A DNA stretch of 64,000 nucleotides from an uncultured Bdellovibrionales bacterium (GTDB taxonomy: Bacteria; Patescibacteriota; Minisyncoccia; Moranbacterales; DUUL01), in assembly GCA_964346295.1 (NCBI GenBank), contig CAYFUG010000004.1, positions 532 through 64,531 on the forward strand, in the 5' to 3' direction. The notes beneath the pieces were generated by a model. That model was not told the DNA's origin, did not search any database, and worked only from the letters and a program-made list of their open reading frames with translations. This document shows positions 7,573-62,046 of the stretch, in pieces. The translations under genes and the position numbers were made by a program. How positions within the stretch are numbered: position 1 is the stretch's first letter; each line of letters starts with the position of its first letter.

Positions 7573-7632
7573 TGTAAATAAATGGTACCATGTTTAGACA
7601 TAAGATGTAAATAAATGGTACCATGTTTAGAC
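7573..7632 (+). repeat. 27-bp direct repeat x2 (period 33 bp) spanning the start codon of the AAA+ ATPase gene
   Basis: TGTAAATAAATGGTACCATGTTTAGAC at 7573-7599 and 7606-7632. The first copy yields a 6-codon mini-ORF, MFRHKM*. Confidence 0.8.
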
Positions 7633-9045: not shown

Positions 9046-9074
9046 TTGACATTTTTTTATAAATATGCTATTAT
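9046..9074 (+). promoter_or_regulatory. Module 1 promoter P1 (sigma70 consensus-like)
   Basis: TTGACA (9046-9051), 17-nt spacer, TATTAT (9069-9074) preceded by TGc. Followed by GTCCAGCTGAAATGG, which resembles the conserved start of the other module transcripts. Confidence 0.6.
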
Positions 9075-9127: not shown

Positions 9128-9156
9128 TTGACAAGGTTTCAAAAATATGCTACACT
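9128..9156 (+). promoter_or_regulatory. Module 1 promoter P2
   Basis: TTGACA, 17-nt spacer, TGcTACACT. Followed by GTCAAGCTAAGAAAAGG (9162-9178), almost identical to 28912-28928 and 59154-59170. Confidence 0.7.
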
Positions 9157-9958: not shown

Positions 9959-9977
9959 TGTTCTTTGAAAATCTTAG
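9959..9977 (+). promoter_or_regulatory. boxA-like antitermination motif (module 1)
   Basis: TGTTCTTTGAAAATCTTAG. The core TGTTCTTTGAAAA matches the Gram-positive rrn boxA consensus and the copies at 29130, 32104 and 59261. Confidence 0.55.
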
Positions 9978-10017
9978 TTACTGTTTAGTCTATTTTCTCC
10001 TTATTTTTAAGGTGAAA

Positions 10018-10228: not shown

Positions 10229-11209
10229 ATGACCAATTTCGCGAGCAAATTTGACGGCAAGGGGATCCATGTAATCGCAACCGGTTCGGTGGACGGGGTT
10301 TTGACCACCGCGGCATTTTTGCGGGTGATCGGACTCCATGAGGAGAAGGCAGGGGTGGAGTTTACCCAGGCCTTCACGGTTGACAAGCTGAATCCGGCCC
10401 AGTGGCCGGAGGGGCGGCAGGTCGTTTTCGTGGACCTGGCGGTCAACAATCAGAACCCGGAGATGACGGCGGATTTCGTCCGGCGCATTCGGGAAGCGGG
10501 ACATGAGATCGTTGCCGTATGCGACGAGCACGACGCCGACGCCTGGAAGCGGGTGTTGGGGCAGGAGCCCTTTGAGGCCCTGATCGTAAAGCCCCAAAGT
10601 CAGAAAAAGGGCGAGGCCCAGTCCAGCGGCGCCATTTTATTGGAGGCGCTGGGGGACGAGGCCGATGACCACACTCGCGAGCTGTGCGAAGCCGCGAATG
10701 CCGCCGACCAAATGGATTTTTCCACCCATTTTGGCAGTTACGCCAATCGGGCGGTTAAGTCCGCCATGGGAGACAACTCCCGGCGGGTGCATTTGGCTGG
10801 GCACTTTGCTGCCAACCGGGAGCCGGACGAAGTTATCAGCAGCTGGTGCGCCGAGTACGAGGCGATTATCGCCACCCACGAGGAAGTCCTGGGAAACCGG
10901 GAAGACCTGGGAAGCGGGATCGTCCGGATCGACTGCACTGGCAAGAAGGTGGACATGACCACCTTGATGGGCCAGGTCTACGATCTGCCTGAAACGAAGG
11001 CCTGCCTGGTGATCGGGCCGGTGTATAACAAGGCCAAGGGCGGAATCGAGGTTATGGCCTCCTTCGGAACACGGATTGAAGGCTTCGACATTCAGGCCGC
11101 GATTCAGTCCGAAGGTGTTTCGGCCGGCGGCTTTGCCTCCAAGGCGAATGTCGATCTGGAAAACGAAAAGGCGGCCATTGAGGCCGTCAGAAAAGCGCTT
11201 AACGGCTAG
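10229..11209 (+). CDS. GC-rich cargo protein 1a (326 aa), weak DHH-phosphoesterase-like motifs; function unknown
   Basis: Start chosen at the ATG after GGAGGGAGAAGGAGAGG (the track ORF starts upstream at 10175). GC3-rich codons. Motifs HVIATGSVDG, VVFVDLAV and VAVCDEHDAD. Confidence 0.8.
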   Translation: MTNFASKFDGKGIHVIATGSVDGVLTTAAFLRVIGLHEEKAGVEFTQAFTVDKLNPAQWPEGRQVVFVDLAVNNQNPEMTADFVRRIREAGHEIVAVCDEHDADAWKRVLGQEPFEALIVKPQSQKKGEAQSSGAILLEALGDEADDHTRELCEAANAADQMDFSTHFGSYANRAVKSAMGDNSRRVHLAGHFAANREPDEVISSWCAEYEAIIATHEEVLGNREDLGSGIVRIDCTGKKVDMTTLMGQVYDLPETKACLVIGPVYNKAKGGIEVMASFGTRIEGFDIQAAIQSEGVSAGGFASKANVDLENEKAAIEAVRKALNG

Positions 11210-11685
11210 ACAGTAGCCCCGTTCGTAACTCTCCTCTCTGCTATTTTTATAGTAGAGCAGCGACGAGTGCGTTCGGGGCCTAGCCAAAGATTTTCGTGTG
11301 GTTCAGGGAAAGGAGTTTGTCGGCAACATTCGACAGCTCCTTCCTTCTAAGCTCGGCAACTGAAAGTTTTCAGCTGGTGGTTTTAGAAGGGAATAATGTT
11401 TCCCTAGAGAGTGTATCTCTAAGATATGCTCTAGTTCTTTGACAAGTCCTATTTATACTAGACTCTAAGCTCTGGAGGTTTGATTCTCAAGCTTTTCCCA
11501 TTCCTTAATTTCCTTAAATTCCTAGCTTTACCATCACTGCCTGAGAGCGCAAATACGAATATCCGTTGAAGTAGCGGAAAGTTGTCTAAAATTTGTGCTT
11601 GCAAGTGGTGATGGTAAAAACCCTGGCCGGAATGTTTCCGGTGGGGGTTGGAAGTAATTTTTGAAAAAAGGAAAAAGGAGAAGTC

Positions 11686-12459: not shown

Positions 12460-12758
12460 AAATAGGACTACTAAAGAATAGGATGGGGCGCGCGTTGGAT
12501 CGTCAACCGCGCCTCCCCTATCATCCGGTGAGACCGGATCTGATGAGGTTTTCTGAATAACATTTCAGAGTCAAAGCCGAAATAGGGATTGTTTCTTTGT
12601 AATGTTTTTAGTGGTAAAAGTTAGCCTTTTGTGGGCTGTAGTGTCAAATTCAAAAACCTCTCTCCTCCTCTATTGGTTATAAATACTAGCTATTTAGTCA
12701 CTAGAGTTGAATTTGATGCTCAGCCCAAAGGAGGCTAAGTAAATAAAAAGTAAAAACA

Positions 12759-28877: not shown

Positions 28878-28906
28878 TTGACAATTTTTTAATAATATGC
28901 TACAAT
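28878..28906 (+). promoter_or_regulatory. Module 2 promoter (consensus sigma70, extended -10)
   Basis: TTGACA, 17-nt spacer, TGcTACAAT. A/T-rich upstream tract. Followed by GTCAAGCTAAGAAAAGG (28912-28928). Confidence 0.75.
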
Positions 28907-29129
28907 GCCTTGTCAAGCTAAGAAAAGGGTAAAACTCCGAAGCTTGAAGAACTGAAAGGTTCTAGCCAAATAAGAATAGTTGGCTCTTAGTACATTATAT
29001 CGAGAATAACCACACAACACAAACCACAGGAAAGTTTCTTGCAAGGCTTTTCTAGAGGTGTTTTTTGTGTTGTGGAAACATTCTCTAGCAAGAGCCCTGC
29101 AAAAAACTCTCCTATCACGGGGAGTTTTT

Positions 29130-29154
29130 TGTTCTTTGAAAACTCAGAAATCAG
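29130..29154 (+). promoter_or_regulatory. boxA-like antitermination motif (module 2, leader copy)
   Basis: TGTTCTTTGAAAACTCAGAAATCAG. Preceded by a terminator-like hairpin at 29101-29130. Confidence 0.6.
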
Positions 29155-29251: not shown

Positions 29252-29335
29252 GGGCGTCCTAGTCACCGGGAAATTTTACAAAAAAATTATCCGGGCTGTA
29301 CTAGGCAGCCCATTTTTCAGAAAAGGAGAAAGACC

Positions 29336-29785
29336 ATGAAGAAGAATTTCAAACTCGTTCCCGGATCCAAAGGTGCTCGCCGCTCCTTCGCCGTTACTTG
29401 TGGCCTGCAAGAGGGCTACGAAGACGGAACCCTTCACACTTTCCAGGAGGCCGTTGAGGTTGCCTTGGAATGGATGAGGGGGCGGGCCGCCGCCGGTGAG
29501 CAGTACTTGACTGGGACCTTCGTCCAGGGTGAGGTGGTGTTTGCCTGGCCCGAAGGCCCTGGCAAGGCCGGTGGCGGTCACGAGGCGACGGTGATTTACC
29601 AGGGCGAGGTCAGCCCGATCTACAACGCGGGCATGACCGATGAAGAGGCCGTCGAGATCCTCAATGACCTGGCGGCCCATCTGGGGACCGCTCTGGGCCA
29701 GACCCGGGTCTATGTCGCCTTGTGCGACCAGATCTGGATTCTCCAGGCGGAAGAGACGGAAACCCCCACCGGGGAGACCGTCTAG
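29336..29785 (+). CDS. GC-rich cargo protein 2a (149 aa), unknown function
   Basis: AAAGGAGAAAGACC-ATG. GC3-rich. Antisense shadow ORFs are present. Confidence 0.75.
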   Translation: MKKNFKLVPGSKGARRSFAVTCGLQEGYEDGTLHTFQEAVEVALEWMRGRAAAGEQYLTGTFVQGEVVFAWPEGPGKAGGGHEATVIYQGEVSPIYNAGMTDEEAVEILNDLAAHLGTALGQTRVYVALCDQIWILQAEETETPTGETV

Positions 29786-30072
29786 CGGCCGTTTTTCTGT
29801 CCCCCTTCAATTTGCTTTTGGCATTTAGGAGGGGGCAGCGCTGATTTCTGAGTAAGAGGGTTCAAGGAAGGCGGATTCACATTGTGCGTCCGCCTCCTTT
29901 TCTCAAATCTCAAGTTTAATTGAGGTTTGAGATGAAGGATTGCACCTTGAAAAATTTTCCCTATTTCTCCTTTCAATTGCCTTTTTTCACTTAGTGAAAA
30001 CAAATCCAACTTCGTTGATTGAAGTGAGGCAATTGACGATTTTCAACTGAAAAAAGGGAGAGGAGAAGGGGC

Positions 30073-30526: not shown

Positions 30527-31306
30527 ATGAAACGGATTTTTGTTGTCCCTATCAACGATGGGGAGGCGGTAGAGATTAGGAATCTCCTACAGGATGGCGG
30601 TGAAGTGGTTGTGGAAAGCGTCCTCCGTTGGGGAGCCCGATGGGAGAAGCTGGAACCGGAGGTGGTGGCGGAGATCGAAAGGCTTCGCTCCCTTAATCCG
30701 GGAGTTCAGATCTACGGCGTGGAGCTGGCCGGCCCCAATCAGTGGGGGGCTCGCAACATCGACCACCACAAGTACCAGGATGAGGATCGGAGTAATTCCA
30801 AGTCCTCCCTGGAGCAAGTGGCGGAGTTGTTGGGCGTCCAGCTGACCCGGCACCAATTTTTGGTTTCGGAGAATGACAAGGGTTGGATCCCGGCGCTAAT
30901 AGCGGCCGGAGCCAGTCCCGACGAGATCGAACTGGTGCGGGCGCAGGATCGCCAGGCCCAGGGGGTTACCCCTGACGACGAAGCCCAGGCTCTTCGGGAT
31001 ATCGAGGCGGCCCAGTGGCAAGGTCGGAAGGTCTGGCTCCAGTGTCTCAAGGGGGCCACCTCGGCCCACACTGACCGGCTCTTTGGTCAGTTTGACGAAG
31101 CCCTGACGGTGGATGGGGTCAACGGAAAGTGGATCTATTTTGGTCCGCGATCCGAAGATTTCTTCGCCCTCACCGAAGGGGGCACCGAAGGGATACGCTG
31201 GAAAAGCCCTCGACCAGGGGGGTACTCCGGGGCGGAAAAGCCCCAGGAGGAGACCCAGGAAGCAATCCGGAATTTTTTTGGGAGTAATTCCCTTACCTCT
31301 TTTTAG
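30527..31306 (+). CDS. GC-rich cargo protein 2c (259 aa), contains NIDHH motif; unknown function
   Basis: Start taken at the ATG after TAAGGAGGAGACACTT, 14 nt after the 2b stop. The track ORF 30119-31306 has an implausible N-terminal extension that overlaps 2b. Confidence 0.75.
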   Translation: MKRIFVVPINDGEAVEIRNLLQDGGEVVVESVLRWGARWEKLEPEVVAEIERLRSLNPGVQIYGVELAGPNQWGARNIDHHKYQDEDRSNSKSSLEQVAELLGVQLTRHQFLVSENDKGWIPALIAAGASPDEIELVRAQDRQAQGVTPDDEAQALRDIEAAQWQGRKVWLQCLKGATSAHTDRLFGQFDEALTVDGVNGKWIYFGPRSEDFFALTEGGTEGIRWKSPRPGGYSGAEKPQEETQEAIRNFFGSNSLTSF

Positions 31307-32037: not shown

Positions 32038-32084
32038 GGATCAGGTGTCATTGTGCATCTGATCCGGAATTCTGAGCTTAGCTC
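32038..32084 (+). promoter_or_regulatory. Conserved trailer element: hairpin plus CCGGAATTCTGAGCTT
   Basis: GGATCAGGTG...CATCTGATCC hairpin, then CCGGAATTCTGAGCTTAGCTC. Homologous to 60573-60616. Partly complementary to the transcript 5' end at 28914-28924. Confidence 0.5.
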
Positions 32085-32103: not shown

Positions 32104-32128
32104 CGTTCTTTAAAAACTCAGAAATCAG
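32104..32128 (+). promoter_or_regulatory. boxA-like motif (module 2, internal spacer copy)
   Basis: CGTTCTTTAAAAACTCAGAAATCAG. Confidence 0.55.
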
Positions 32129-32269
32129 GAAAATCCAACTTTCTATCTTTTCTCTTTGTCTTCTAAAAGTTGTTGGTTACCCGAGAGAATTTAATCTAGT
32201 TAATGAACTGAATTAGCCAGTTAAGTTTTTTTGGGCAACCAACAACCAAGGAAAGAGAAGGAGGAAGAC

Positions 32270-32518
32270 ATGAGATACCAAGGAGCGAGAGAATACAAGG
32301 GCCAGAGGGTGGAAATCCAGCTGCGGGCTGGGGGCAATAATCCCGGAAACGCCTCGGTAACGCTGGTTATCAAAATGGATGGCCAGGAGGTTTTTCGGAG
32401 AAGTGCCGGCCGAGACGGAATGGGCCAGGTGGAAGCCCTGGCCGTGGCTGAAGTGGCCAAGGTCCAAGAGTTGGGCGAAGAAATATATATCGTCCAGTTC
32501 AATGCCGAAGCTATCTAG
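32270..32518 (+). CDS. GC-rich cargo protein 2e (82 aa), unknown function
   Basis: GAAGGAGGAAGAC-ATG. The track ORF starts at an upstream TTG. Confidence 0.65.
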   Translation: MRYQGAREYKGQRVEIQLRAGGNNPGNASVTLVIKMDGQEVFRRSAGRDGMGQVEALAVAEVAKVQELGEEIYIVQFNAEAI

Positions 32519-32703
32519 CCCTTACCTTAGAATTTTTTTGATTTCTAGGCCCTCTCCATCAGGCCTCCTGCGAAGTTAGCAGGTTTTAAAAATTTGGATG
32601 GTAGTCCGAGCGGCGGAAATGACTCAAAACTATCCGCAAAATTAGCCCTGACAATCAGGGCCGGCCGAGGCAAGCGCAATGCCGCTTTAGCCTAAGAGGC
32701 CAC

Positions 32704-32836
32704 CAAAAGGCCCGAAAGAGTCTGGCCAACGCGCTAAATCTTTCGGAGGGACGAACTTGTTGAACACAACATTTTCGTCCCCTCTACTAGCAACTTAATT
32801 TGAGACTTGATCTTTTATTGAGTTGCTTGAGAGAAT
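32704..32836 (+). repeat. 133-bp direct repeat, copy 1 (structured element flanking cargo gene 2f)
   Basis: 131/133 identical to 34003-34135. Contains GGCCCGAAAGAGTCTGGCC and GAGGGACGAA...TTCGTCCCCTC hairpins. Confidence 0.9.
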
Positions 32837-32864: not shown

Positions 32865-32924
32865 ATATCCAAAGCTTCATTGTAATCTTTGGGTACTTCA
32901 ACCAAACCAGAAAAGGGGGATGCC

Positions 32925-33971
32925 ATGGGTAAATTTCAGGAAATCACACTGGAATTATTGTTGGAAAATGAAGTTTTGAGGAAGTATCTTCTCAAGGCAA
33001 GAATTGGTCCAGCTAAAAAAGGCGACGGTGCTTTTGTGGGGACTTATGATATTGCCCCGAAGGAGTTTCGGAGTTTTGGAATTGTTTTGCCCAGGGGCGG
33101 GATGATTATTCCAGGGGCAGATCCTGTCAAGTTAAAGGAAATGGTCAAGGAGCCTGAGCGCCGGCGTGAGGCGGAGGACTTGGCAAATCGTCGTGCTGTT
33201 GAAAAAGATTATCTCAATCAGGTGAAAGAGATAATTGCTGAAGCTGGCCTCACGGATATTGAAGTGGTGGAAGAAGACGGAGTGGACTTCCATAGTATCG
33301 GCGCCACCAGCTGGCACAAGAGCTTTTTGGTAAGAGAAGGAGAGAAAATCTTCAGTCTTCACAGCGAAGAGGAGCCGTATCGTGGCTTAGATGACGATGG
33401 TTCGTACGAGCCGTGGAGGACGGAGTTTACTCCGTTGGAAGAGGTGAAATCCTTCCTTGAAGAGGAGGCGCGTCTTGTTGGTCCGAGAAAAATGTTTGCT
33501 GATCGGATCAGGCGGCTTATTGATATAAGCCACAATGTTGGTCAGCAAGGGCCAGATGAAACTGGCTGGGATCGCCCTCGAGTGGAATTATTTTTGTACG
33601 ATGACTATAAAAAAGGCAGGGACTGGGGTTTTTTCGGTCATCGTTGTCAGGGTATCTCTTCGGCCCACAGGATTTACTATCGAAAAAAACTCTATGAGAT
33701 TACCGAAGAAGGCATTTCTCGCCTTGAGTATGAAATCGGAGAAAGGGAGGAGGCGCTAGAAGCAAGACGAGCGATGCTCAAAAGACTCTTCGAAGAGAAG
33801 GGCAGAGTTTTTGAGGAACTCAAAGAAGAGAAAGATTGCTATGCCGGAAAGTCACTGGCAACCGGCAAGGCAAAGTACGATGAGTGGACTGAAACGCGCT
33901 ACTTTCTCGGCGACACAGAAGTTACCGAGGAAGAGCGTGATTGGCTGAAGGGCTTACCTAAGGATAATTAG
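32925..33971 (+). CDS. Cargo protein 2f (348 aa), Glu/Arg-rich, unknown function
   Basis: AAAAGGGGGATGCC-ATG. The track start at 32889 is a TTG. Confidence 0.75.
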   Translation: MGKFQEITLELLLENEVLRKYLLKARIGPAKKGDGAFVGTYDIAPKEFRSFGIVLPRGGMIIPGADPVKLKEMVKEPERRREAEDLANRRAVEKDYLNQVKEIIAEAGLTDIEVVEEDGVDFHSIGATSWHKSFLVREGEKIFSLHSEEEPYRGLDDDGSYEPWRTEFTPLEEVKSFLEEEARLVGPRKMFADRIRRLIDISHNVGQQGPDETGWDRPRVELFLYDDYKKGRDWGFFGHRCQGISSAHRIYYRKKLYEITEEGISRLEYEIGEREEALEARRAMLKRLFEEKGRVFEELKEEKDCYAGKSLATGKAKYDEWTETRYFLGDTEVTEEERDWLKGLPKDN

Positions 33972-34002: not shown

Positions 34003-34135
34003 CAAAAGGCCCGAAAGAGCCTGGCCAACGCGCCAAATCTTTCGGAGGGACGAACTTGTTGAACACAACATTTTCGTCCCCTCTACTAGCAACTTAATTT
34101 GAGACTTGATCTTTTATTGAGTTGCTTGAGAGAAT
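34003..34135 (+). repeat. 133-bp direct repeat, copy 2
   Basis: See 32704-32836. There are two substitutions between the copies. Confidence 0.9.
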
Positions 34136-55944: not shown

Positions 55945-56360
55945 AAACTAAAATACTACAATTCCTAGTCGCTTGGTCTAGCTTTGTCTAGATCAAGAGG
56001 AAAGTCTGGACACCAGCCGGCTTTCAATTGGAAGCCAGTTAAAAGGGTAATCGGTAACGCCGATCGGGCTCGATGTGAGTCGAGTCAAGGGATAGCGCCG
56101 CAGAGACAATACTAGTTAATGCTCTGCATTAACGAAAGGTGAAAAGTGTCGAGGGGCTCATTTCTTCGGAATTTGAGCTACTCGACTCGGCTATTGGCGA
56201 CAATAGTTTGTGGCAAGCCCTACCCGGTGCAAGGCCGTGTCTTCTCGTAAAAGAGAGGAAGTGCCGCTAAAGTTCAGCAGTGATGTTGAATGTAGATAAA
56301 TGACTAGGCCAATTTACTTTGGTAGATTGGTACAGAATCCGGCTTATTTTATCTAGTTTT
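55945..56360 (+). ncRNA. rnpB: RNase P RNA (bacterial type A-like)
   Basis: GAGGAAAGTCTGG (55997-56009) and ACAGAATCCGGCTTA (56332-56346) form the universal P4 strands. P1 pairing is AAACTAAAATA / TATTTTATCTAGTTT. GC-rich relative to its surroundings. Confidence 0.85.
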
Positions 56361-56658
56361 CAGTTAGTAGTTTTCAGTTTTTAGGCCGCATGGAGGCAGC
56401 GCAGGTTATAGAAGCGAGTCCTTTGTAAAAATCTCGAGCGTTGTTTACAGCTTTCTTTATTAGTAGAACACCTCTATTTTTCTTCATGAGGCATTTTGTC
56501 TCCTATATAAGGCAATAAACGCCGTCATTAAAACTGGAGCGGTTTGAAATTGAAATTTAAAAATGTAAACAACGCTAAGGAATCTTACAAGTTATTTCTT
56601 ATCTTGAATTTTCTGGTGTAGTATATGCTGAGCTAAGATAGAAAATAAAATCAAAAGA

Positions 56659-57144
56659 ATGGGTCAATTTGTTTATTTTATACCCCATTTATTCCCACTG
56701 ATTGTCGGAGGGGTGGTAATTTTCTCTCTGGGACATTTTAGCTTTAAATTCTTTATGCACCTTGTGAATAGGAGGTTTTATGTAGCTCCTAGGGAAGGCT
56801 CTATTCTTGGTAAGACGGCAGCTTTCTTGTCTTTGGGATTTTTACCAATTTTTTTCTTAGTAGGAATGCTGGAGTCTAAATTGGATGGATTTTTGAATGA
56901 CCTAATGTTAAATTCTAGTATTTTTCAGCGGGGGACTTTTTTAAGAAAAGCTATCTTTTATCTAGAGCAAAGTTCACTTGCTCTGATTTTTCTAGTTGTT
57001 TATTTAATTTTTTACTCATTTTTAATCTTTCTTTCATATTCCAAAGAGTCAAATAAAAAGTGGGCCTTTCTTTCAGAAGTTGTAATTTTTATTGGGATAG
57101 GCTATTTGGGCTATTTGCTTTTAGTGGCATTTGGAGTGGGATGA
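56659..57144 (+). CDS. Integral membrane protein (hypothetical)
   Basis: Four or five hydrophobic segments. Confidence 0.55.
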   Translation: MGQFVYFIPHLFPLIVGGVVIFSLGHFSFKFFMHLVNRRFYVAPREGSILGKTAAFLSLGFLPIFFLVGMLESKLDGFLNDLMLNSSIFQRGTFLRKAIFYLEQSSLALIFLVVYLIFYSFLIFLSYSKESNKKWAFLSEVVIFIGIGYLGYLLLVAFGVG

Positions 57145-57172
57145 TTTTTTAGTTTTAATTGCTTCATTTTCT

Positions 57173-58018
57173 ATGGTTAAAAGATCTTCGGGTAAAATTA
57201 AATATGGAGTGGTTGGGGGAGTTTTTTTATTGGTTTTATTGGTGGTCTTTGTGACTAGAGGGAGCGATAAAAAACCCCTGGAGGGCTTTTGGAATTGGAC
57301 AGTGCGGCCAGTAGCAGGAGTTTTTTCGGCAGTGGGAGGTTGGTTTGGTCAAAAAACTTCGGTGGTTACTTCCATTGGGGAAGTTAAAGAGGAGAATAAC
57401 CGCTTAACGGAGGAGAATTTAAAATTAAAATTTCAATTATCTCAATTGGCTAGTATTCAGCGAGAAAACGAGGAGTTGCGGAGTTTGTTGGCCTTGGCAC
57501 CAGTGGATAAATACGATCTGGAATCAGTGCTGATTGTGGGGCGAGATGTGAATGGTCAAAGAGAGGTGGTTTATCTTAGCAAGGGCAGCAAGCAGGGCAT
57601 TCAAGAGGGGATGGGAGTAGTGGTAGGTGAGGGGGTGTTGATTGGAAAAATTTCTAAAGTTTTTGCTAATTCTTCACAAATGGAGTTTTTAGTGAGTGAT
57701 ATGCGAGTAAACGCTGAAATTGTGGAAGCGGGAGCCAAGGGTGTAGTGGTGGGCCGCTATGAAACGGCAGCGCTAATGGAGATGATTCCTCGGACAGTAG
57801 AGGTAAACAAAGGCGATGCGATTATCACTTCTGGGGTGGGAAAAACTCTCCCCAGGGGTCTTTTGATCGGTTATGTAGCGGAAGTTAAACCTTCTTCTAA
57901 CCAGCTTTTCCAAGAGGCTAGTATTGAATTTTTGGTGGATTTTCAAAAAATTCGGGGAGCGTGGGTGGTGAAAAAGGCTAAGGATGAGGAAGAGGAAGTT
58001 GACCGAGTAGAAAACTAA
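57173..58018 (+). CDS. mreC: Rod shape-determining protein MreC
   Basis: N-terminal TM, coiled coil EENNRLTEENLKLKFQLSQL...ENEELRSLL, and C-terminal beta domain (VITSGVGKTLPRGLLIGYV). Start at ATG 57173. Confidence 0.85.
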   Translation: MVKRSSGKIKYGVVGGVFLLVLLVVFVTRGSDKKPLEGFWNWTVRPVAGVFSAVGGWFGQKTSVVTSIGEVKEENNRLTEENLKLKFQLSQLASIQRENEELRSLLALAPVDKYDLESVLIVGRDVNGQREVVYLSKGSKQGIQEGMGVVVGEGVLIGKISKVFANSSQMEFLVSDMRVNAEIVEAGAKGVVVGRYETAALMEMIPRTVEVNKGDAIITSGVGKTLPRGLLIGYVAEVKPSSNQLFQEASIEFLVDFQKIRGAWVVKKAKDEEEEVDRVEN

Positions 58019-58051
58019 CTCTTTTGGCTAATATAAGGCGTTTATTGATTA

Positions 58052-58837
58052 TTAAGCTGGCAAAGTTTTCCAAAGTTGCTCAAATTGGGTGCGTTGGAGA
58101 GCGTAGATTTGAGGATCTTCGATAATGATGGAAATTAACCCGGAGGACCCGATTGCCTGGTAGGAGATTTTATTGTGATAAATTTGAATGGAAGCGCTGA
58201 AGTTAAGGGCGCTTTTTTTAATGAAACGCACTTGAGTGATGGCCTGGTAATTAGCGGGAGCAGTTCGATATTCTTCGATTATTCCGGGTTCATCAAGATC
58301 GATAATCCTTTTTTGGAGCCCCAAACGGGCTCTTTTTTGAGTGTAGCGAGCGTTGATCTTCTCATTGTTTTTGGCTAATTTCGGATCAGTGGTTCTAAAA
58401 ATAGCAGCAGAATCGATTAAAGTGAGAATTTCCGTGTCGCTGCGCAAAGTGTCCTCCAGCACTTTCTCTAGACCTTCGGAGCCCTCTAAAAAGCGAATTC
58501 CTGGTCGATTGAGGCCCAAATTGTATAAAGAAGCTAAGTTAGGCGCCATCTCTAAGAAGGCGCTTTTTTGTTGCTTAAATTCTTGCTCTTTTTGATCGAG
58601 GATTTTTTGGATTTGAGCCGGGTGTTGAGCGGAAAAACGGGCTACTTTGCCTTTTTTATCAAGCCTAAAGACTAGTTCCAGGTTCTCTAGCTCAGCCAGA
58701 ATTTTATAGGCGGCTTCTCTGGGGCGGTTGGTTTTTTGGGCAATTTCTCGGGCTCGGGTCGGTCCGTTTTGGTAGAGGAATTCCAAGATTTGGGCTTGGG
58801 AGGGGGTGAGGCCGATGCTTTGGAGAAGTTCCAGCAT
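58052..58837 (-). CDS. TrmB-family transcriptional regulator (paralog 3)
   Basis: GLTPSQAQILEFLYQNGPTRAREIAQKTNRPREAAYKILAELENLELV. Divergent from the module 3 promoter. Confidence 0.8.
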   Translation of the reverse strand: MLELLQSIGLTPSQAQILEFLYQNGPTRAREIAQKTNRPREAAYKILAELENLELVFRLDKKGKVARFSAQHPAQIQKILDQKEQEFKQQKSAFLEMAPNLASLYNLGLNRPGIRFLEGSEGLEKVLEDTLRSDTEILTLIDSAAIFRTTDPKLAKNNEKINARYTQKRARLGLQKRIIDLDEPGIIEEYRTAPANYQAITQVRFIKKSALNFSASIQIYHNKISYQAIGSSGLISIIIEDPQIYALQRTQFEQLWKTLPA

Positions 58838-58846
58838 ATTGAGAAG

Positions 58847-58964
58847 AACTTCCAGATTTGGCGAATCTCGATGTTACTCGCTGCGTTTAGTACTCACCAT
58901 ACTTCTTAGTACGCCTCCCACTAAGCCTCACTTGCACCTAGAGCTTCACTCAAATCTGAAAGTT
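58847..58964. repeat. 118-bp MITE-like palindromic element, family B
   Basis: TIRs AACTTCCAGATTTGGCGAA / TTCACTCAAATCTGAAAGTT. Core CTCACCATACTTCTTAGTACG. Confidence 0.75.
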
Positions 58965-59119
58965 TTAAAGTAAGCTGTTTATTTTGTCATGGGTAATTTT
59001 AGCACATTTATATTTTTTGTAAACTTTTAAGATTACATTTTTTAGGCTTATTTAATTATTTTATCTTTATTGAGTTATTTTTTAAAGTAACATTTTCAAT
59101 TTTAGTGTAGTTTTGATTA

Positions 59120-59148
59120 TTGACAAATATTAATTATTATGCTACAAT
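59120..59148 (+). promoter_or_regulatory. Module 3 promoter (consensus sigma70, extended -10)
   Basis: TTGACA, 17-nt spacer, TGcTACAAT. A/T-rich upstream. Followed by GTCAAGCTCAGAAAAGG (59154-59170). Confidence 0.75.
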
Positions 59149-59260
59149 GCTCTGTCAAGCTCAGAAAAGGTTCAGATTCGTGGGTTTTGATTGTTGGAAT
59201 AATTTTGAGATCCGGAAAAAGGCTTAAAAAGCTTTTCTCGGGCTCTCAAAGCAGAGCCTA

Positions 59261-59285
59261 GGTTCTTTGAAAACTTAGAAATCAG
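59261..59285 (+). promoter_or_regulatory. boxA-like antitermination motif (module 3)
   Basis: GGTTCTTTGAAAACTTAGAAATCAG. Confidence 0.6.
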
Positions 59286-59324
59286 TTACTTCGAGATTCT
59301 TACTTGGAAATTGATAAAGAGGGT

Positions 59325-59384
59325 AGTTATCAGTCTTTTGAGGCTCTAAATTGCAAAATTTGGGGCTTGAGATGACTGATAACT
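59325..59384 (+). promoter_or_regulatory. 22-bp-stem hairpin after boxA (RNase III-like or terminator-like)
   Basis: AGTTATCAGTCTTTTGAGGCTC pairs with GGGCTTGAGATGACTGATAACT (2 mismatches, several G-U pairs). Followed by TATTTTTTATTTT. Confidence 0.6.
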
Positions 59385-59420
59385 TATTTTTTATTTTCTT
59401 TTATCAACAAGGAGGATATC

Positions 59421-60554
59421 ATGAAAAAAATTTTTTTATACAGTCCGGGCGCGGATCTGCTCCTTTCCTGGGGCGCTCATTTGATCGAACGGCCTGATCT
59501 GTCAATCGAACGGGACATGCTCGCGGGCGCGATCAGCGAATGGAACCGGAACGAATTGCTGGCGGATTTCCTGGAATCCTGGCCGACCATGCTGGAAGAC
59601 GCCAACAAGGCGCAAGCGTTTTTTGAAGCTCGTCCCGTCATTCCCAATGATTTCACCGATCCTGACTGGAATGAGGCCATTGACGCCCTGCGGGCGTTCG
59701 ACCAGGTCGTTCATCTGTGGGTCGCGGTCGAAGACTTGTTCAGTGACAACGCGCCGGAAGTCATCGACGAACTGGAAGGCCGTTGTTACGACATTTCCGA
59801 ATGGCTTGACAACGCCGAATCGTTTACCAGCCTTCGTCTGGCCCCCTTGAACGAATGGCGGAAAAACCGGATTGAACGCGTCGAAGCGTCTTCCCGGTTC
59901 CTGTTTCCCTGGCTTGCCGATATGGCATGGGCCCCCGCCGACGCGCTGGAACAGCTTGAAGCCCATTGGAACGCGGTTCGGGAAAAAGGCGTTGGCGGCC
60001 TTTCATTTATCGCCGAGCCGGACCGCCTCATTTTCTGGGATTATTTAAAACGCGACATCGGGCTTCAGCAGGAAATGGAAAACCGCCGGCGGCTGGACAT
60101 CGCCATCGCCGACGCCGTGGATCAGAGCCTTCCGCTTCAACTGTTGCGGGTATACGAGAAGCATGTGCAAATATCCGACGTGCCGGAACACGTCCTTCGC
60201 CATGGACTGGCCAACGCGGCCTGCGCCGCCCTGACGGGCGACCGGCATGACGAAGCGTCCCATGAAGACCTGGGCCCCGCCCTGGAAGCGGCCATGGCGC
60301 AAAACGCTCCCATCGAGCGCGTGCTGACGACCGCCCTTTGCGGCCCCTTTCTTACCGACGCCCAGCGGCTTGCCGCGTTCAAGCGGGCCGCGATGAAGCT
60401 GGAAAAAGACGTCTCGGTGGGCGGTTTGGAGGGAATCTTCACCCAGGTGGACCTATGGATGAAAAACGAACTGACGGACGGCGATTTTGCCGACGCGATG
60501 ATGGCCGCCTGGGACCGGATGGCGGAAAACGCCATGAAAGGAGGTGATAACTGA
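59421..60554 (+). CDS. GC-rich cargo protein 3 (377 aa), unknown function
   Basis: CAAGGAGGATATC-ATG. GC3-rich. Several shadow ORFs on both strands. Confidence 0.8.
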   Translation: MKKIFLYSPGADLLLSWGAHLIERPDLSIERDMLAGAISEWNRNELLADFLESWPTMLEDANKAQAFFEARPVIPNDFTDPDWNEAIDALRAFDQVVHLWVAVEDLFSDNAPEVIDELEGRCYDISEWLDNAESFTSLRLAPLNEWRKNRIERVEASSRFLFPWLADMAWAPADALEQLEAHWNAVREKGVGGLSFIAEPDRLIFWDYLKRDIGLQQEMENRRRLDIAIADAVDQSLPLQLLRVYEKHVQISDVPEHVLRHGLANAACAALTGDRHDEASHEDLGPALEAAMAQNAPIERVLTTALCGPFLTDAQRLAAFKRAAMKLEKDVSVGGLEGIFTQVDLWMKNELTDGDFADAMMAAWDRMAENAMKGGDN

Positions 60555-60572
60555 TTTCTAGTGGTTCTTTTC

Positions 60573-60616
60573 GGATCAGGCTCGCAATGCGCGCTTGGTC
60601 CGGAATTCTGAGCTTG
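60573..60616 (+). promoter_or_regulatory. Conserved trailer element: hairpin plus CCGGAATTCTGAGCTTG
   Basis: GGATCAGGC...GCTTGGTCC hairpin. TTCTGAGCTTG (60606-60616) is the exact reverse complement of CAAGCTCAGAA at the transcript 5' end (59156-59166). Confidence 0.55.
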
Positions 60617-60672
60617 TCTGGAGCAATTTGATTGCTTTAGGCAAGTTGAGAATTCTTGAGTGATATTTTTTC

Positions 60673-60707
60673 AAACCTGGCAGATCTAAAGATAGGCCAG
60701 GTTTTTT
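60673..60707 (+). terminator. Intrinsic terminator (end of module 3)
   Basis: AAACCTGGC-loop-GCCAGGTTTTTT. Confidence 0.75.
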
Positions 60708-60813
60708 GATGGTGCTCAATTTCCCTGTCTCCCTTTGCAAAAAAAAGGGGGAGCTGGGAAATTGTTTTTTGTTTAGCTAACTGTTAAAATTAGGCTATCA
60801 ATTTCTATCAACT

Positions 60814-61050
60814 CTAGGAAGATCTTAAAAAATAAAAACTAATGTTGGGCGAAAAAATTATCGATAAAAAAAGATTTGATTCTCGTTTTTTATCCTCATG
60901 AGTGTACTTCATTGCGTCTCCTCGTTGTTCAATGATCTTGTCAATTTGCTTTTCTGATAGCTCCGGATCATCGTTTCCAGTGAATTTTGCCATCATCATT
61001 TGAAGTCTCCGCTCCTCTGTTTTTTCAGATTTTTCCAATTCCTTGCTCAT
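60814..61050 (-). CDS. Small hypothetical protein (78 aa), downstream partner of a 2-gene pair
   Basis: Its start overlaps the upstream gene's stop (ATGA). Confidence 0.4.
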   Translation of the reverse strand: MSKELEKSEKTEERRLQMMMAKFTGNDDPELSEKQIDKIIEQRGDAMKYTHEDKKRESNLFLSIIFSPNISFYFLRSS

Positions 61051-61298
61051 TGCGTTGTTTTTTGAAGGTAATTAAGCAAAAAAACGCTCCCTTTGGATTT
61101 TCTTGAGTCTTCTTCTTTTTCAAAGTAATAATCTAAAGAATCCCTCAATTCCTTTTTCAGTAAGATAGAAATCAAAAAACGAGCCTCTCTTGAAGTGATT
61201 AAACTTTCCTTTTTCGCTTCAACGATTCTATCAATTTTTAAGTCAAGTTCGTCGGAGTAGTTGTTCTTGGGACGGATTGTGATGCTAGTAGTATTCAT
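61047..61298 (-). CDS. Small protein with ribbon-helix-helix-like N-terminus (83 aa)
   Basis: SITIRPKNNYSDELDLKIDRIVEAKK...SREARFLISILL fits a beta-strand/helix/helix pattern. Tentative. Confidence 0.45.
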   Translation of the reverse strand: MNTTSITIRPKNNYSDELDLKIDRIVEAKKESLITSREARFLISILLKKELRDSLDYYFEKEEDSRKSKGSVFLLNYLQKTTQ

Positions 61299-61521
61299 TA
61301 GATTGATTTTATCTTTATGGTTTCATTTTAACTCAATTAGAGAAAAAATCAAGAAAGCAATTGAGGCAGTTAATCCTGAAGCTCCCTTCTTTAGAGATTT
61401 TTTTGTGAAAAATTTACCAGTTGCGAGAGTTGGAAAATCTTGTAAACTGAAAATGTAGTTAGCAGATTTTAATTTCCTTATCTATTCCAAACAGGCTCTA
61501 AGCCACTATTCAGATTATGTT

Positions 61522-62046
61522 ATGGGCAAGATCATTTTTTTCTTTTTATTTCTCACTTTTTTTGTCGAGTTCTCTCTTTTGGCAGCTTTTCCGGGGGATT
61601 TTTTTGCGGGAGCCGGTTTTTTCGCAGTTTTTTTGCTGGCAGTAACTCTCAAGCGAGATGAGGAGGAAAGTCTATTTTGGGCTATTTCCGGAGGTATTTT
61701 CTTGGATTATTTCTCGTCTTTGCCCTGGGGAACTAATGCCTTGGCTTTTGGATCAATAGTTTTTTTGGCTGCTTTAGTAAAACAGAAGTTGCTTTCTCAG
61801 GACCAGCGCTTTTATCAAGCTTTTGTCTTGGTGCTGGTCTTGGAGATCATCTTTTCAATCCTGATTCTTTTGTGGGGTAATTTTTTATCGTTAATCACGG
61901 GAGAGGGTTGGTTATGGCTAGGTTCTTCGGCGGGAAGTTACTTAATTTCGCAGGTGTTTTTTGCTCTTTGGGGAGGATTTTTCTACAAGATACTGTGGCT
62001 GGGAGAGAGTTATTTGGAGAAGAAAGAGAGACGGTTGATTGTCTAA
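61522..62046 (+). CDS. mreD: Rod shape-determining protein MreD (probable)
   Basis: 174-aa polytopic membrane protein directly upstream of PBP2. Size and position are typical of MreD. Confidence 0.6.
   Translation: MGKIIFFFLFLTFFVEFSLLAAFPGDFFAGAGFFAVFLLAVTLKRDEEESLFWAISGGIFLDYFSSLPWGTNALAFGSIVFLAALVKQKLLSQDQRFYQAFVLVLVLEIIFSILILLWGNFLSLITGEGWLWLGSSAGSYLISQVFFALWGGFFYKILWLGESYLEKKERRLIV

What the first reader, a model, noticed from the sequence alone, without database searches (positions are those of the whole stretch)
59156..60616. Leader/trailer complementarity encloses the cargo gene like an rRNA processing stalk
In module 3, CAAGCTCAGAA at the predicted transcript 5' end (59156-59166) is the exact reverse complement of TTCTGAGCTTG (60606-60616), 52 nt after the cargo stop. 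A further GCTC/GAGC pairing lies across a small internal loop, although that GCTC may be upstream of the transcription start. In module 2 the equivalent pair is 28914-28924 with 32070-32079. It gives 9 bp with one internal A/G mismatch, and an alternative AGCTAAG/CTTAGCT register exists. In rrn operons such long-range helices bracket 16S and 23S and are RNase III sites. Bracketing an mRNA this way would define and possibly stabilise a processed cargo RNA.
Basis: partly seen in the sequence, partly recalled or inferred. Interest (0 to 1): 0.75.

Follow-up and report, generated by a model that had tools for sequence, protein, structure and literature searches.

The report
rRNA-style stalk brackets captured genes
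The 11-base match is really in the sequence but is probably not the working structure; a stronger pairing beside an rRNA-type antitermination signal (boxA) brackets each captured gene, so this candidate-phyla bacterium seems to express foreign genes from cassettes built like ribosomal RNA operons.

Summary
The 11-nt complementarity (59156-59166 / 60606-60616) is exact. On its own it is weak. Matches of 11 nt or more occur in 6.9% of non-cognate leader/trailer pairs. The M1 and M2 equivalents carry uncompensated A.A and A.G mismatches. In full-length RNA folds the helix has pair probability 0.00 in M3 and 0.05-0.07 in M1. Its 3' arm is buried in a 25-bp local hairpin, and forcing the long-range helix costs +8.4 kcal/mol.

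The general idea of an rRNA-like bracket does hold, for a different, nested helix. Each module has a strong promoter, a boxB-like hairpin, boxA (GTTCTTTGAAAACT), and then an arm that pairs with the 3' end of the next ORF, often across its stop codon. In M3 this is 59276-59288 / 60548-60560, 13/13 bp, probability about 1.0. Five of six boxA-like units in the window show such pairing (one weakly), in three unrelated arm sequences. Two other Patescibacteria genomes show it too.

The M3 cargo is a fragment of Csx30. It is 92% nt identical to a type III-E CRISPR locus of a co-occurring 55%-GC organism. TrmB-family regulators next to GC-rich genes recur across Patescibacteria.

Verdict: observation confirmed, interpretation partly supported (right concept, wrong helix). 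This is a new variant of the rrn leader-trailer architecture. All evidence is computational.

The parts
58052..58837 (-). Divergently transcribed TrmB-family HTH regulator of module 3. Its paralogue for module 2 is at 28001-28762 (-).
   Evidence: Pfam TrmB E=6.5e-11 and 1.2e-10. The two are 36% identical over their full length. Homologues are all from Patescibacteria.
59120..59148 (+). Module 3 promoter: TTGACA, 17-nt spacer, TG-extended TACAAT. Predicted start about 59155-59157.
   Evidence: 11 of 12 consensus matches. The block is conserved with M1 (9128-9156) and M2 (28878-28906).
59156..59166 (+). It lies inside the conserved +1 motif GTCAAGCTNAGAAAAGG.
   Evidence: Exact complement of 60606-60616. 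Unpaired in the leader-only fold. Pair probability with 60606-60616 is 0.00 in the full-length fold.
59240..59259 (+). boxB-like hairpin immediately upstream of boxA.
   Evidence: Stem-loop found. Equivalent hairpins lie at 9941-9958, 11408-11432 and 29109-29124.
59262..59275 (+). boxA-like element GTTCTTTGAAAACT.
   Evidence: Motif search. The same sequence starts the published mycoplasma nested-PCR primer GTTCTTTGAAAACTGAAT (PMC3019172).
59276..59288 (+). Inner (boxC-like) 5' arm TAGAAATCAGTTA. The imperfect extended version spans 59272-59292.
   Evidence: 13/13 complement of 60548-60560. Pair probability 0.76-1.00 in the full-length fold. Duplex -20.7 kcal/mol, z=-3.1 against 33 other ORF 3' ends.
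59325..59404 (+). Leader hairpin (28-nt arms, 59325-59384) followed by a T-rich run. It looks like a terminator or attenuator upstream of the RBS (AGGAGG, 59410-59415).
   Evidence: Inverted repeat I2. Present in the leader fold, z=-4.8. The function is inferred.
59421..60554 (+). Cargo ORF (377 aa, 59% GC). The foreign segment 59435-60537 corresponds to residues about 9-378 of a Csx30 homologue, with sharp junctions.
   Evidence: 92% nt identity to L001, 86% to L002. PDB 8eey_E Csx30, E=2.7e-7. The donor locus encodes Cas7-11. The 5' junction is confirmed by independent assemblies.
60548..60560 (+). Inner 3' arm TAACTGATTTCTA, overlapping the cargo stop codon TGA (60552-60554).
60573..60601 (+). 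Trailer hairpin 1 (GGATCAGGC...GCTTGGTCC). It is conserved with M2 (32038-32065), with changes that keep the pairing.
   Evidence: Alignment. Local fold MFE and centroid.
60602..60656 (+). Trailer hairpin 2, about 25 bp.
   Evidence: Present in the full-length MFE and in the local fold MFE and centroid. The trailer z-score is -7.4.
60673..60710 (+). Intrinsic terminator-like hairpin plus T run, the likely 3' end of the module 3 transcript.
   Evidence: Inverted repeat I11. Local fold.
9960..9990 (+). Module 1 boxA (9960-9973) and inner 5' arm GTTACTGTTTAGTC (9977-9990).
   Evidence: 14 bp including 3 G.U with 11204-11217. Duplex -20.6 kcal/mol. Pair probability about 0.87. Present in the MFE.
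11204..11217 (+). Module 1 inner 3' arm GGCTAGACAGTAGC, overlapping the cargo stop TAG (11207-11209). The cargo ORF is 10229-11209.
11339..11353 (+). Module 1 counterpart of the outer 3' arm (CCTTCCTTCTAAGCT). It pairs with 9165-9178 only with an A.A mismatch and a bulge, and it is also part of a local hairpin (11343-11390).
   Evidence: Rank 2 of 6395 windows. Local inverted repeat I6. Pair probability 0.05-0.07.
11434..11466 (+). Follow-on unit M1b: boxA-like GTTCTTTGACAAG plus arm AGTCCTATTT (11445-11454). The arm pairs with AAATAGGACT (12460-12469), directly after the stop of ORF 11686-12459.
   Evidence: Duplex -21.5 kcal/mol, z=-3.5, 0 of 33 controls as good. Sequence checked.
29131..29154 (+). 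Module 2 boxA (29131-29144) and inner 5' arm ACTCAGAAATCAG (29142-29154).
   Evidence: 13/13 with 29841-29853. Pair probability about 1.0 in the first-cistron transcript. z=-5.6.
29841..29853 (+). Module 2 inner 3' arm CTGATTTCTGAGT, 56 nt after the stop of the first cargo ORF (29336-29785).
32063..32079 (+). Module 2 trailer motif TCCGGAATTCTGAGCTT, identical to 60599-60615.
   Evidence: Pairing with 28914-28924 has an A.G mismatch. z=-1.2.
32105..32136 (+). Follow-on unit M2b: boxA GTTCTTTAAAAACT plus arm. The arm pairs weakly with 32530-32549, 12-31 nt after the stop of ORF 32270-32518.
   Evidence: Duplex -15.6 kcal/mol, z=-1.7.

Best explanation
**What the region is.** Window 59120-60710 is one of three paralogous expression cassettes in a Patescibacteria genome. 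The cassettes are built like the front of a ribosomal RNA operon but carry a protein-coding, horizontally acquired cargo. In order, each has:
- a near-consensus promoter;
- a boxB-like hairpin;
- boxA (GTTCTTTGAAAACT);
- a boxC-like arm starting 0-4 nt after boxA;
- a leader hairpin that looks like a terminator;
- a strong RBS and the GC-rich cargo;
- a 3' arm at the stop codon;
- stable trailer hairpins and a terminator.

**The operative bracket.** The boxA-adjacent arm pairs with the 3' end of the cistron (M3: 59276-59288 / 60548-60560). This is the counterpart of the rRNA leader-trailer helix.

**Inferred mechanism.**
1. A NusB/NusE-type complex loads on boxA.
2. It makes RNA polymerase resistant to termination through the leader hairpin and the foreign cargo.
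3. It keeps the adjacent arm near the RNA exit channel, so the arm anneals as soon as the 3' arm emerges.
4. The resulting stalk then insulates the cistron or is cut by a double-strand RNase. Because the stop codon lies inside it, its formation may also be coupled to translation.

**The flagged outer pair.** The 11-nt pair (59156-59166 / 60606-60616) is a true sequence complementarity. It most likely reflects a shared CTNAGAAA-type motif and a local trailer hairpin. At most it is a weak second tier.

**Shown versus inferred.** Shown: sequence anatomy, complementarity statistics, thermodynamic predictions, cargo origin. Inferred: Nus loading, antitermination, RNase cleavage, and any in vivo structure.
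For: **Anatomy**
- Promoter, boxB and boxA are found in all three modules plus follow-on units.
- The boxA 14-mer equals the start of a published mycoplasma nested-PCR primer. That this primer targets the 16S-23S rRNA spacer is from my own knowledge.

**Inner helix**
- 13/13 bp in M3 and M2. 14 bp in M1 and 10+ bp in M1b, with unrelated arm sequences.
- The 5x5 cross-duplex matrix is dominated by its diagonal, with three specificity groups. z = -3.0, -3.5, -5.6, -1.7 and -3.1 against 33 other ORF 3' ends.
- No non-cognate pair among 423 reaches 13 nt.
- There is a compensatory C-G to U-A change between M2 and M3 (29145/29850 versus 59276/60560).
- Pair probability is about 1.0 (M3), 0.87 (M1) and 1.0 (M2 first cistron).
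- The same arrangement occurs in a Doudnabacteria contig, L028 (z=-5.8, 3' arm over the stop codon), and in L078 (z=-3.9).

**Fit to the rrn model**
- In rRNA operons, boxC lies in the 5' strand of the leader-trailer helix just downstream of boxA. It is proposed to be held at the RNA exit channel through boxA-NusB (PMC10250234).

**Against the outer helix**.
Against: - All evidence is computational. Folds of 1.5-3.6 kb mRNAs are unreliable and ignore ribosomes.
- The inner helices are short (13-14 contiguous bp) compared with 25-40 bp rRNA stalks, and may be poor RNase III substrates.
- One boxA-like unit (32853) has no bracket, and M2b is weak.
- In many other Patescibacteria loci the post-boxA arm pairs locally within the leader rather than beyond the ORF.
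- The five units sit in one genome, and M2, M2b and M3 share arms, so there are only about three independent cases here plus two elsewhere.
- The organism's true rrn leader was not available for comparison. No nusB, nusE or rnc gene was examined.
- The outer 3' motif does recur in all three modules at top-ranked sites, so a second-tier helix is not excluded.
Confidence: 0.55

Rival explanations
1. The transcript's extreme 5' end (59156-59166) pairs with 60606-60616 to form an rRNA-like RNase III stalk that defines and stabilises a processed cargo RNA.
For: - The match is an exact 11 bp.
- The 5' arm is single-stranded in the leader-only fold.
- The module's own trailer ranks 4th (M3) and 2nd (M1) of 6395 windows for the 5'-terminal 20-mer.
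- z = -2.7 and -2.1 against other ORF-downstream regions.
- The trailer motif TCCGGAATTCTGAGCTT is identical in M2 and M3.
- The helix is topologically compatible with the inner helix, which is kept when the outer one is forced.
Against: - Pair probability is 0.00 (M3) and 0.05-0.07 (M1).
- It is absent from all minimum-energy structures.
- Forcing it costs +8.4 kcal/mol, because the 3' arm is inside a 25-bp local hairpin.
- The M1 and M2 counterparts have uncompensated A.A and A.G mismatches, and M2 gives z=-1.2.
- Matches of 11 nt or more occur in 6.9% of non-cognate pairs.
- There is no general 5'-end/trailer signal in 13 other Patescibacteria modules.
- 11 bp is well below the usual RNase III substrate length.
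Confidence: 0.12
2. The inverted repeats are DNA-level relics or recognition sites of the process that captures or replaces cargo, for example cassette insertion into a pre-existing hairpin or element ends. They are not functional RNA helices.
For: - The cargo is clearly swapped in. The foreign segment has sharp junctions 10 nt from the inner 3' arm.
- Module 3 and its regulator sit between mreC and mreD.
- A 133-nt direct repeat flanks the neighbouring ORF 32889-33971.
- In several other loci the post-boxA arm forms a local hairpin, which could be the uninterrupted ancestral state.
- A Y1 transposase gene lies next to the M1-family gene in L074.
Against: - No recombinase, integrase or transposase is near the three modules in the window.
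- No target-site duplications were seen.
- The 5' arm is always tied to boxA rather than to the cargo junction. In M3 it is 146 nt upstream of the junction.
- The 3' arm repeatedly overlaps the stop codon, which points to an RNA or translation-level role.
Confidence: 0.12
3. A fold-back control of a harmful cargo. The 5'-3' pairing (inner, possibly also outer) keeps the mRNA translationally inert or stable until 3' processing or ribosome passage opens it. This would resemble the fold-back inhibition element of hok mRNA or the icaR 5'/3'-UTR pairing, rather than rRNA-type maturation.
For: - The M3 cargo corresponds to the Csx30 N-terminal domain. That domain was toxic when overexpressed in E. 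coli (preprint 10.1101/2022.08.17.504292).
- The stop codon lies inside the helix in M1, M3 and L028.
- An extra regulator and leader hairpins suggest tight control.
Against: - The 5' arm lies 130-250 nt upstream of the RBS and does not occlude it.
- The same bracket surrounds unrelated cargos of unknown toxicity (M1, M1b, M2).
- The tight link to boxB and boxA is explained better by the rrn-type model.
Confidence: 0.12
4. There is no functional long-range structure at all. All the complementarities result from chance, low-complexity A/T-rich flanks and recent duplication of module pieces.
For: - Many 10-14-nt inverted pairs exist in these regions.
- M2, M2b and M3 share arms, consistent with duplication.
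- The signal is absent or local in many other loci.
Against: - M1, M1b and L028 have unrelated arm sequences, yet each pairs best with its own ORF 3' end.
- 13-nt perfect matches were not seen in 423 control pairs.
- The arms hold a fixed position relative to boxA and the stop codon.
Confidence: 0.08

Closest known systems
Leader-trailer helix of bacterial rRNA operons with boxB-boxA-boxC (rrn antitermination complex)
   Same: - The order of elements matches: promoter, boxB hairpin, boxA, then the 5' strand of a long-range helix just downstream of boxA. That strand pairs with sequence just past the 3' end of the enclosed gene.
- A second boxA unit follows the first (M1b, M2b), as with the spacer boxA before 23S.
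- The model in which boxA-NusB anchors the 5' strand at the RNA exit channel fits the 0-4 nt spacing here (PMC10250234).
   Different: - The enclosed gene is a translated, horizontally acquired protein-coding ORF, not an rRNA.
- The helix is 13-14 contiguous bp (about 20 imperfect), against 25-40 bp.
- The arm starts 0-4 nt after boxA, against 18-19 nt in Enterobacteriaceae.
- The 3' arm often overlaps the stop codon.
- The cassette has a divergent TrmB-family regulator and leader terminator-like hairpins.
boxA/Nus-factor antitermination outside rRNA operons (CRISPR arrays, PMC7665894; suhB leader, from my own knowledge of Baniulyte et al. 2017)
   Same: A boxA element is placed in the leader of a non-rRNA transcription unit, presumably to protect a long or poorly translated transcript from premature termination.
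   Different: Those cases have no described leader-trailer helix bracketing the downstream unit. They also do not involve serial, cassette-like units with foreign cargo.
5'-UTR/3'-UTR pairing in bacterial mRNAs (S. aureus icaR; hok mRNA fold-back inhibition), from my own knowledge
   Same: Long-range pairing between the leader and the 3' end of the same mRNA. In icaR it is linked to RNase III. In hok it controls a toxic product.
   Different: - In those cases the pairing directly masks the ribosome-binding region or the extreme 5' end.
- Here the arm is tied to boxA and lies far from the RBS.
- Those cases contain no Nus elements.
Integron gene cassettes and other capture platforms
   Same: Serial units carry unrelated, compositionally foreign ORFs, each followed by an imperfect inverted-repeat element.
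   Different: - There is no integrase, no attC-type site and no common Pc promoter.
- Each unit has its own promoter or boxA leader.
- The repeats pair across the ORF rather than forming a single 3' attC hairpin.

Membership tests
rrn-type antitermination leader (boxB-boxA-boxC) | boxA sequence matching the conserved rrn boxA | tested here: met
   GTTCTTTGAAAACT is at 59262, 29131, 32105 (one change) and 9960 (variant). It is identical to the start of the mycoplasma nested-PCR primer GTTCTTTGAAAACTGAAT. That this primer lies in the 16S-23S rRNA spacer is from my own knowledge.
rrn-type antitermination leader (boxB-boxA-boxC) | boxB stem-loop just upstream of boxA | tested here: met
   Hairpins lie at 59240-59259, 29109-29124, 9941-9958 and 11408-11432, directly before boxA. 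L028 also has one.
rrn-type antitermination leader (boxB-boxA-boxC) | boxC-like 5' strand of a leader-trailer helix shortly downstream of boxA | tested here: met
   The arms start 0-4 nt after boxA and pair with the ORF 3' end in 5 of 6 units. The spacing differs from the 18-19 nt of Enterobacteriaceae.
rrn-type antitermination leader (boxB-boxA-boxC) | Encloses an rRNA gene | tested here: not met
   There are no rRNA hits in the window; the only Rfam hit is RNase P RNA. The enclosed sequences are ORFs with an RBS.
rrn-type antitermination leader (boxB-boxA-boxC) | Binding of NusB/NusE and processive antitermination | not testable with these tools
   This needs biochemistry or genetics. nus genes were not looked for in the window.
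rRNA-like RNase III processing stalk (the flagged outer helix 59156-66 / 60606-16) | Long, stable leader-trailer duplex (about 20 bp or more) predicted to form | tested here: not met
   The helix is 11 bp, with pair probability 0.00, and forcing it costs +8.4 kcal/mol. The 3' arm is sequestered in a local 25-bp hairpin.
rRNA-like RNase III processing stalk (the flagged outer helix 59156-66 / 60606-16) | Pairing kept by compensatory change in homologues | tested here: not met
   The central pair is C-G in M3, A.G in M2 and A.A in M1. There is no general 5'-end/trailer signal in other modules.
rRNA-like RNase III processing stalk (the inner helix 59276-88 / 60548-60) | Pairing kept by compensatory change in homologues | tested here: met
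   Three unrelated arm/partner sequence groups occur in the window, plus L028 and L078. There is also a C-G to U-A change between M2 and M3.
rRNA-like RNase III processing stalk (the inner helix 59276-88 / 60548-60) | Cleavage by RNase III | not testable with these tools
   This needs end mapping or an in vitro assay. At 13-14 contiguous bp the helix is short for RNase III.
Integron cassette / transposable element ends | Associated integrase or transposase and attC or terminal repeats with target duplication | tested here: not met
   No such genes lie near the modules. No target duplications were seen. Only a 133-nt direct repeat lies around a neighbouring ORF.
Known Rfam RNA families | Match above the gathering score in leaders or trailers | tested here: not met
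   Only sub-threshold hits were found in all three modules.

The most novel reading that the evidence does not exclude
Patescibacteria use an rRNA-operon-derived chassis as a general platform to express genes and gene fragments captured from neighbouring or host bacteria. The chassis comprises a TrmB-controlled strong promoter, boxB-boxA, and a boxA-anchored leader-trailer helix that brackets single cistrons. The captured material includes pieces of CRISPR type III machinery: a truncated Csx30 N-terminal domain and an NrN-like DHH phosphodiesterase. These pieces could act as counter-defence decoys or effectors. The bracket helix would be the first example of Nus-assisted long-range RNA folding applied to mRNAs.
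Probability: 0.3. Interest if true: 0.85.

Novelty: new variant of a known kind. Interest (0 to 1): 0.6.

Why it matters
- **RNA folding beyond rRNA.** If the boxA-adjacent bracket is real, the rRNA leader-trailer and Nus "RNA chaperone" principle is not restricted to ribosomal RNA. It would have been co-opted to fold, insulate or process messenger RNAs.
- **Expression of foreign genes.** It would give a concrete, testable mechanism for how tiny, AT-rich symbiotic bacteria express compositionally foreign genes.
- **Possible link to CRISPR conflict.** The cargo found here is a fresh fragment of a type III-E CRISPR substrate protein, taken from an organism in a sister sample of the same environment. 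This raises the possibility that episymbiont-host or inter-bacterial conflicts involve stolen CRISPR components.
- **For the original finding.** The practical lesson is that the flagged 11-nt helix should not be taken as the processing stalk.

Tried and rejected
- **Genome-collection scan** for boxA plus inner arm (TTCTTTRAAAACTYAGAAATCAG): 0 hits.
- **Metagenome scan** with an arm-independent promoter pattern: 16 loci, essentially all unrelated promoter look-alikes. No close relatives were obtained for a classical covariation test of the outer helix.
- **Other assemblies of the same organism** (L070-L073): 100% identical, so they offer no polymorphism.
- **RNAduplex of whole leaders against trailers, and of the 5' 30-mer against 7 kb downstream:** uninformative, because any long pair gives about -20 kcal/mol.
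- **Rfam at permissive thresholds on all three modules:** only sub-threshold chance hits.
- **Pfam on cargo proteins:** nothing.
- **PHROGs:** nothing useful.
- **rRNA genes in ten related loci,** sought to compare a true rrn leader: none present.
- **Retron and diversity-generating retroelement readings:** rejected, because none of the ORFs scanned against Pfam matched a reverse transcriptase.
- **Integron, transposon or MITE ends:** rejected, because there is no recombinase near the modules and no target duplication.
- **Assembly chimera as the source of the GC-rich cargo:**
  - Rejected for the 5' junction, because independent assemblies span it.
  - The same architecture recurs in dozens of genomes from different studies.
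  - The 3' junction is covered only by the source contig.
Full report
**1. The observation**

CAAGCTCAGAA (59156-59166) is the exact reverse complement of TTCTGAGCTTG (60606-60616). The 3' arm begins 52 nt after the cargo stop codon (TGA, 60552-60554). The promoter is TTGACA, a 17-nt spacer, then TG-extended TACAAT at 59120-59148. The predicted start is therefore about 59155-59157, and the 5' arm sits at the extreme 5' end of the RNA.

**2. Is it more than chance?**

Only mildly.
- A perfect complement of 11 nt or more between leader and trailer arises in 1.5% of mononucleotide shuffles.
- It arises in 29 of 423 (6.9%) natural non-cognate leader x trailer pairs taken from 16 related modules. 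None of the 423 reaches 13 nt.
- The 2-kb region contains 25 inverted pairs of 10 nt or more.
- Sliding the 5'-terminal 20-mer along the whole window ranks the module's own trailer 4th of 6395 windows for M3 and 2nd for M1. The M2 trailer is not in the top 8.
- Against 33 other ORF-downstream regions, z is -2.7 (M3), -2.1 (M1) and -1.2 (M2).
- The one position that varies between modules is not compensated: C-G in M3, A.G in M2, A.A in M1.

**3. Does the flagged helix form?**

Thermodynamic models say no.
- In the full M3 transcript (59155-60712) every pair of the flagged helix has probability 0.00.
- The 3' arm is the ascending strand of a roughly 25-bp local hairpin (60602-60656). This hairpin appears in the full-length MFE and in the MFE and centroid of the isolated trailer, which as a whole folds far better than shuffles (z=-7.4).
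- Forcing the 11-bp helix costs +8.4 kcal/mol.
- In M1 the counterpart has probability 0.05-0.07 and also sits in a local hairpin (11343-11390).
- The outer helix is absent from the MFE structures of M1, M2 and M3.
- Thirteen other Patescibacteria modules show no general complementarity between transcript 5' end and trailer.

**4. What is really there: the cassette anatomy**

The three modules share a mosaic of conserved blocks.
- **Promoter and +1 motif.** The promoter is followed by GTCAAGCTNAGAAAAGG.
- **boxB-boxA.** A hairpin is followed directly by GTTCTTTGAAAACT. That 14-mer is the start of a widely used mycoplasma nested-PCR primer (PMC3019172). From my own knowledge this primer targets the 16S-23S spacer and the motif is the rrn boxA of many Gram-positive-type bacteria.
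- **Follow-on units.** boxB-boxA recurs after M1 (11408-11446) and after M2 (32105).
- **Leader hairpins.** Upstream of each RBS there is a hairpin with a T run that looks like a leader terminator (M3 59325-59404, M2 29293-29311).
- **Rfam.** No family matches.

**5. The better bracket**

The sequence immediately after boxA is complementary to the 3' end of the next ORF.

| Unit | 5' arm | 3' arm | Pairing | Position of 3' arm |
|---|---|---|---|---|
| M3 | 59276-59288 | 60548-60560 | 13/13 | overlaps the stop codon |
| M2 | 29142-29154 | 29841-29853 | 13/13 | 56 nt after the first cargo stop |
| M1 | 9977-9990 | 11204-11217 | 14 bp, 3 G.U | overlaps the stop codon |
| M1b | 11445-11454 | 12460-12469 | 10/10, extendable | directly after the stop |
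| M2b | 32117-32136 | 32530-32549 | weak | 12-31 nt after the stop |

- The arms of M1, M1b and the M2/M2b/M3 group are unrelated in sequence. Even so, each pairs best with its own partner. The cross-duplex matrix gives -20.6, -21.5 and -26.8 kcal/mol on the diagonal, against -7 to -14 between the three specificity groups.
- z against 33 other ORF 3' ends is -3.0, -3.5, -5.6, -1.7 and -3.1.
- M2 and M3 differ by one compensatory pair, C-G versus U-A.
- Pair probabilities are about 1.0 (M3), 0.87 (M1) and 1.0 (M2 first cistron). The helices appear in the MFEs of M1, M3 and the longer M2 transcript.
- In the leader-only fold the arm is unpaired, so it is available.
- One further boxA-like site (32853) has no such partner.

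Outside this genome:
- A Doudnabacteria contig (L028) has boxB, boxA and an arm ACATATGATTAGAC pairing with GTCTAATCCTATGT across a stop codon (z=-5.8).
- L078 has a similar case (z=-3.9).
- In many other loci the post-boxA arm pairs locally instead.

**6. Comparison with rRNA operons**

Warner et al. 2023 (PMC10250234) describe the following.
- The pre-rRNA carries boxB, boxA and boxC.
- The RNase III site overlaps boxC.
- In the proposed model, boxC is anchored near the RNA exit channel through boxA-NusB, so it is ready to pair when the trailer emerges.

The inner helix found here matches that logic in element order and proximity to boxA. It differs in several ways. It encloses a translated ORF, it is much shorter, and its 3' strand often includes the stop codon. 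Membership in the rrn family therefore fails on the defining point of enclosing an rRNA. The "works like" claim stands.

**7. The cargo and its context**

- **Composition.** The cargo ORFs are 52-62% GC in a 43% GC genome.
- **M3 cargo origin.** Its core (59435-60537) is 92% nt identical to codons 9-378 of a 576-aa ORF on a 55%-GC contig from a sister sample of the same JGI project. The junctions are sharp, and the start and stop codons and RBS are supplied by the AT-rich scaffold.
- **M3 cargo identity.** That ORF is a Csx30 homologue (PDB 8eey_E). It lies between a CHAT protease gene and Cas7-11 (E=0), which is a type III-E CRISPR locus.
- **Known biology of Csx30.** In D. ishimotonii, Csx30 is cleaved at M427|K428, and its N-terminal fragment is toxic and binds RpoE (preprint 10.1101/2022.08.17.504292). 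The captured piece is thus most of that N-terminal domain, apparently without the cleavage site.
- **Other cargos.** M2 ORF3 matches a CorA-associated DHH hydrolase (PADLOC, E=3e-31). The M1 cargo belongs to a Patescibacteria-wide family of unknown function. That family is also GC-richer than its flanks elsewhere, and it again sits near TrmB and AAA_14/DUF4143 genes.
- **Regulators.** M2 and M3 each have a divergent TrmB-family regulator. In 48 Patescibacteria loci fetched with this regulator, many show the same layout: a consensus promoter, a leader of about 0.3-2 kb, and GC-rich ORFs.
- **Genomic position.** M3 and its regulator lie between mreC and mreD.
- **Assembly check.** Independent assemblies confirm the leader-cargo junction.

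**8. Mechanism proposed (inference)**

A Nus-type complex on boxA would carry RNA polymerase through the leader hairpin and the foreign cargo. It would also present the adjacent arm to the 3' arm as that arm emerges. The stalk could then insulate each cistron's folding, serve as a double-strand RNase site, or couple RNA fate to translation, because a terminating ribosome must melt it. The flagged outer pairing may be a weak second tier. More likely it is a by-product of the related motifs: AAGCTNAGAAAAGG at +1 against AAACTNAGAAATCAG after boxA, with correspondingly similar 3' partners, plus a local trailer hairpin.

**9. Limits**

- No RNA data exist for this organism.
- Long-RNA folding predictions are fallible.
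- The independent cases number about three in this genome plus two elsewhere.
- The true rrn leader of this organism was not available.
- The 3' cargo junction is supported by one assembly only.

**10. Verdict**

- This is a new variant of a known kind.
- Interest is 0.6. This reflects the boxA-anchored cistron bracket and the captured Csx30 fragment, not the 11-nt match itself.

Noticed in passing
window 59421-60554 (foreign core 59435-60537); donor loci L001, L002, L003: The module 3 cargo is a truncated Csx30 (about residues 9-378 of 576). Csx30 is the protease substrate of type III-E CRISPR 'Craspase' systems. The cargo is 92% nt identical to a gene lying between CHAT protease and Cas7-11 genes on a 55%-GC contig from a sister sample. 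The scaffold supplies a new RBS, ATG and stop.
   Followed up: partly
window 30527-31306: Module 2 ORF3 matches the PADLOC model 'DHH_CorA' (E=3e-31). This is a DHH hydrolase associated with CorA in type III CRISPR loci. The other M2 ORFs have no family match.
   Followed up: no
loci L021-L068 (48 Patescibacteria contigs); window 28001-28762 and 58052-58837: TrmB-family regulators of this subfamily are repeatedly followed, divergently, by a consensus promoter, a leader of about 0.3-2 kb and ORFs 10-25 GC points richer than the genome. This recurs across Patescibacteria lineages.
   Followed up: partly
window 57131-62046: The TrmB regulator, module 3 and two small minus-strand ORFs (60814-61298) lie between mreC and mreD, which are normally adjacent. 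This suggests an insertion of about 3.5 kb.
   Followed up: no
window 32704-32836 and 34003-34135: A 133-nt direct repeat (98% identical) flanks ORF 32889-33971. That ORF is preceded by another boxA-like motif (32853) that lacks a bracket helix.
   Followed up: partly
window 9158-9178, 28908-28928, 59150-59170; loci L030, L032, L047, L053, L057, L062, L064: The first transcribed bases downstream of these promoters share a motif, roughly GTYAAsnTnArAAAAGG, across distant Patescibacteria. Several loci also carry a TTGTCA-N8-9-TGACAA palindrome near the regulator start, a possible operator.
   Followed up: no
window 9046-9074 and 9128-9156: Module 1 has two tandem near-consensus promoters 82 nt apart and a leader of about 1.07 kb. 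This resembles the P1/P2 arrangement of rRNA operons.
   Followed up: no
window 7623-8957: The AAA_14/DUF4143 ATPase upstream of module 1 matches the PADLOC candidate defence family PDC-S01 (E=2e-136). Homologous ATPases also sit next to M1-family genes in L074 and L078.
   Followed up: no
loci L070-L073 versus window 59354-59967: Four independent assemblies of the same organism all end inside the module 3 leader or cargo. This fits repeats shared between modules, or strain-level cargo differences, breaking the assembly there.
   Followed up: no
window 55953-56363: A bacterial class A RNase P RNA gene (144.6 bits) is the only Rfam family above threshold in the window. No tRNA or rRNA genes are present in 64 kb.
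   Followed up: no
window 59164-59169 / 60567-60572 and 9967-9975 / 11287-11295: In the MFE folds the inner helix is extended by a second segment: GAAAAG/CUUUUC in M3 and GAAAAUCUU/AAGAUUUUC in M1. The intervening leader hairpins become an insertion in a composite stalk, as in classical pre-16S models.
   Followed up: partly
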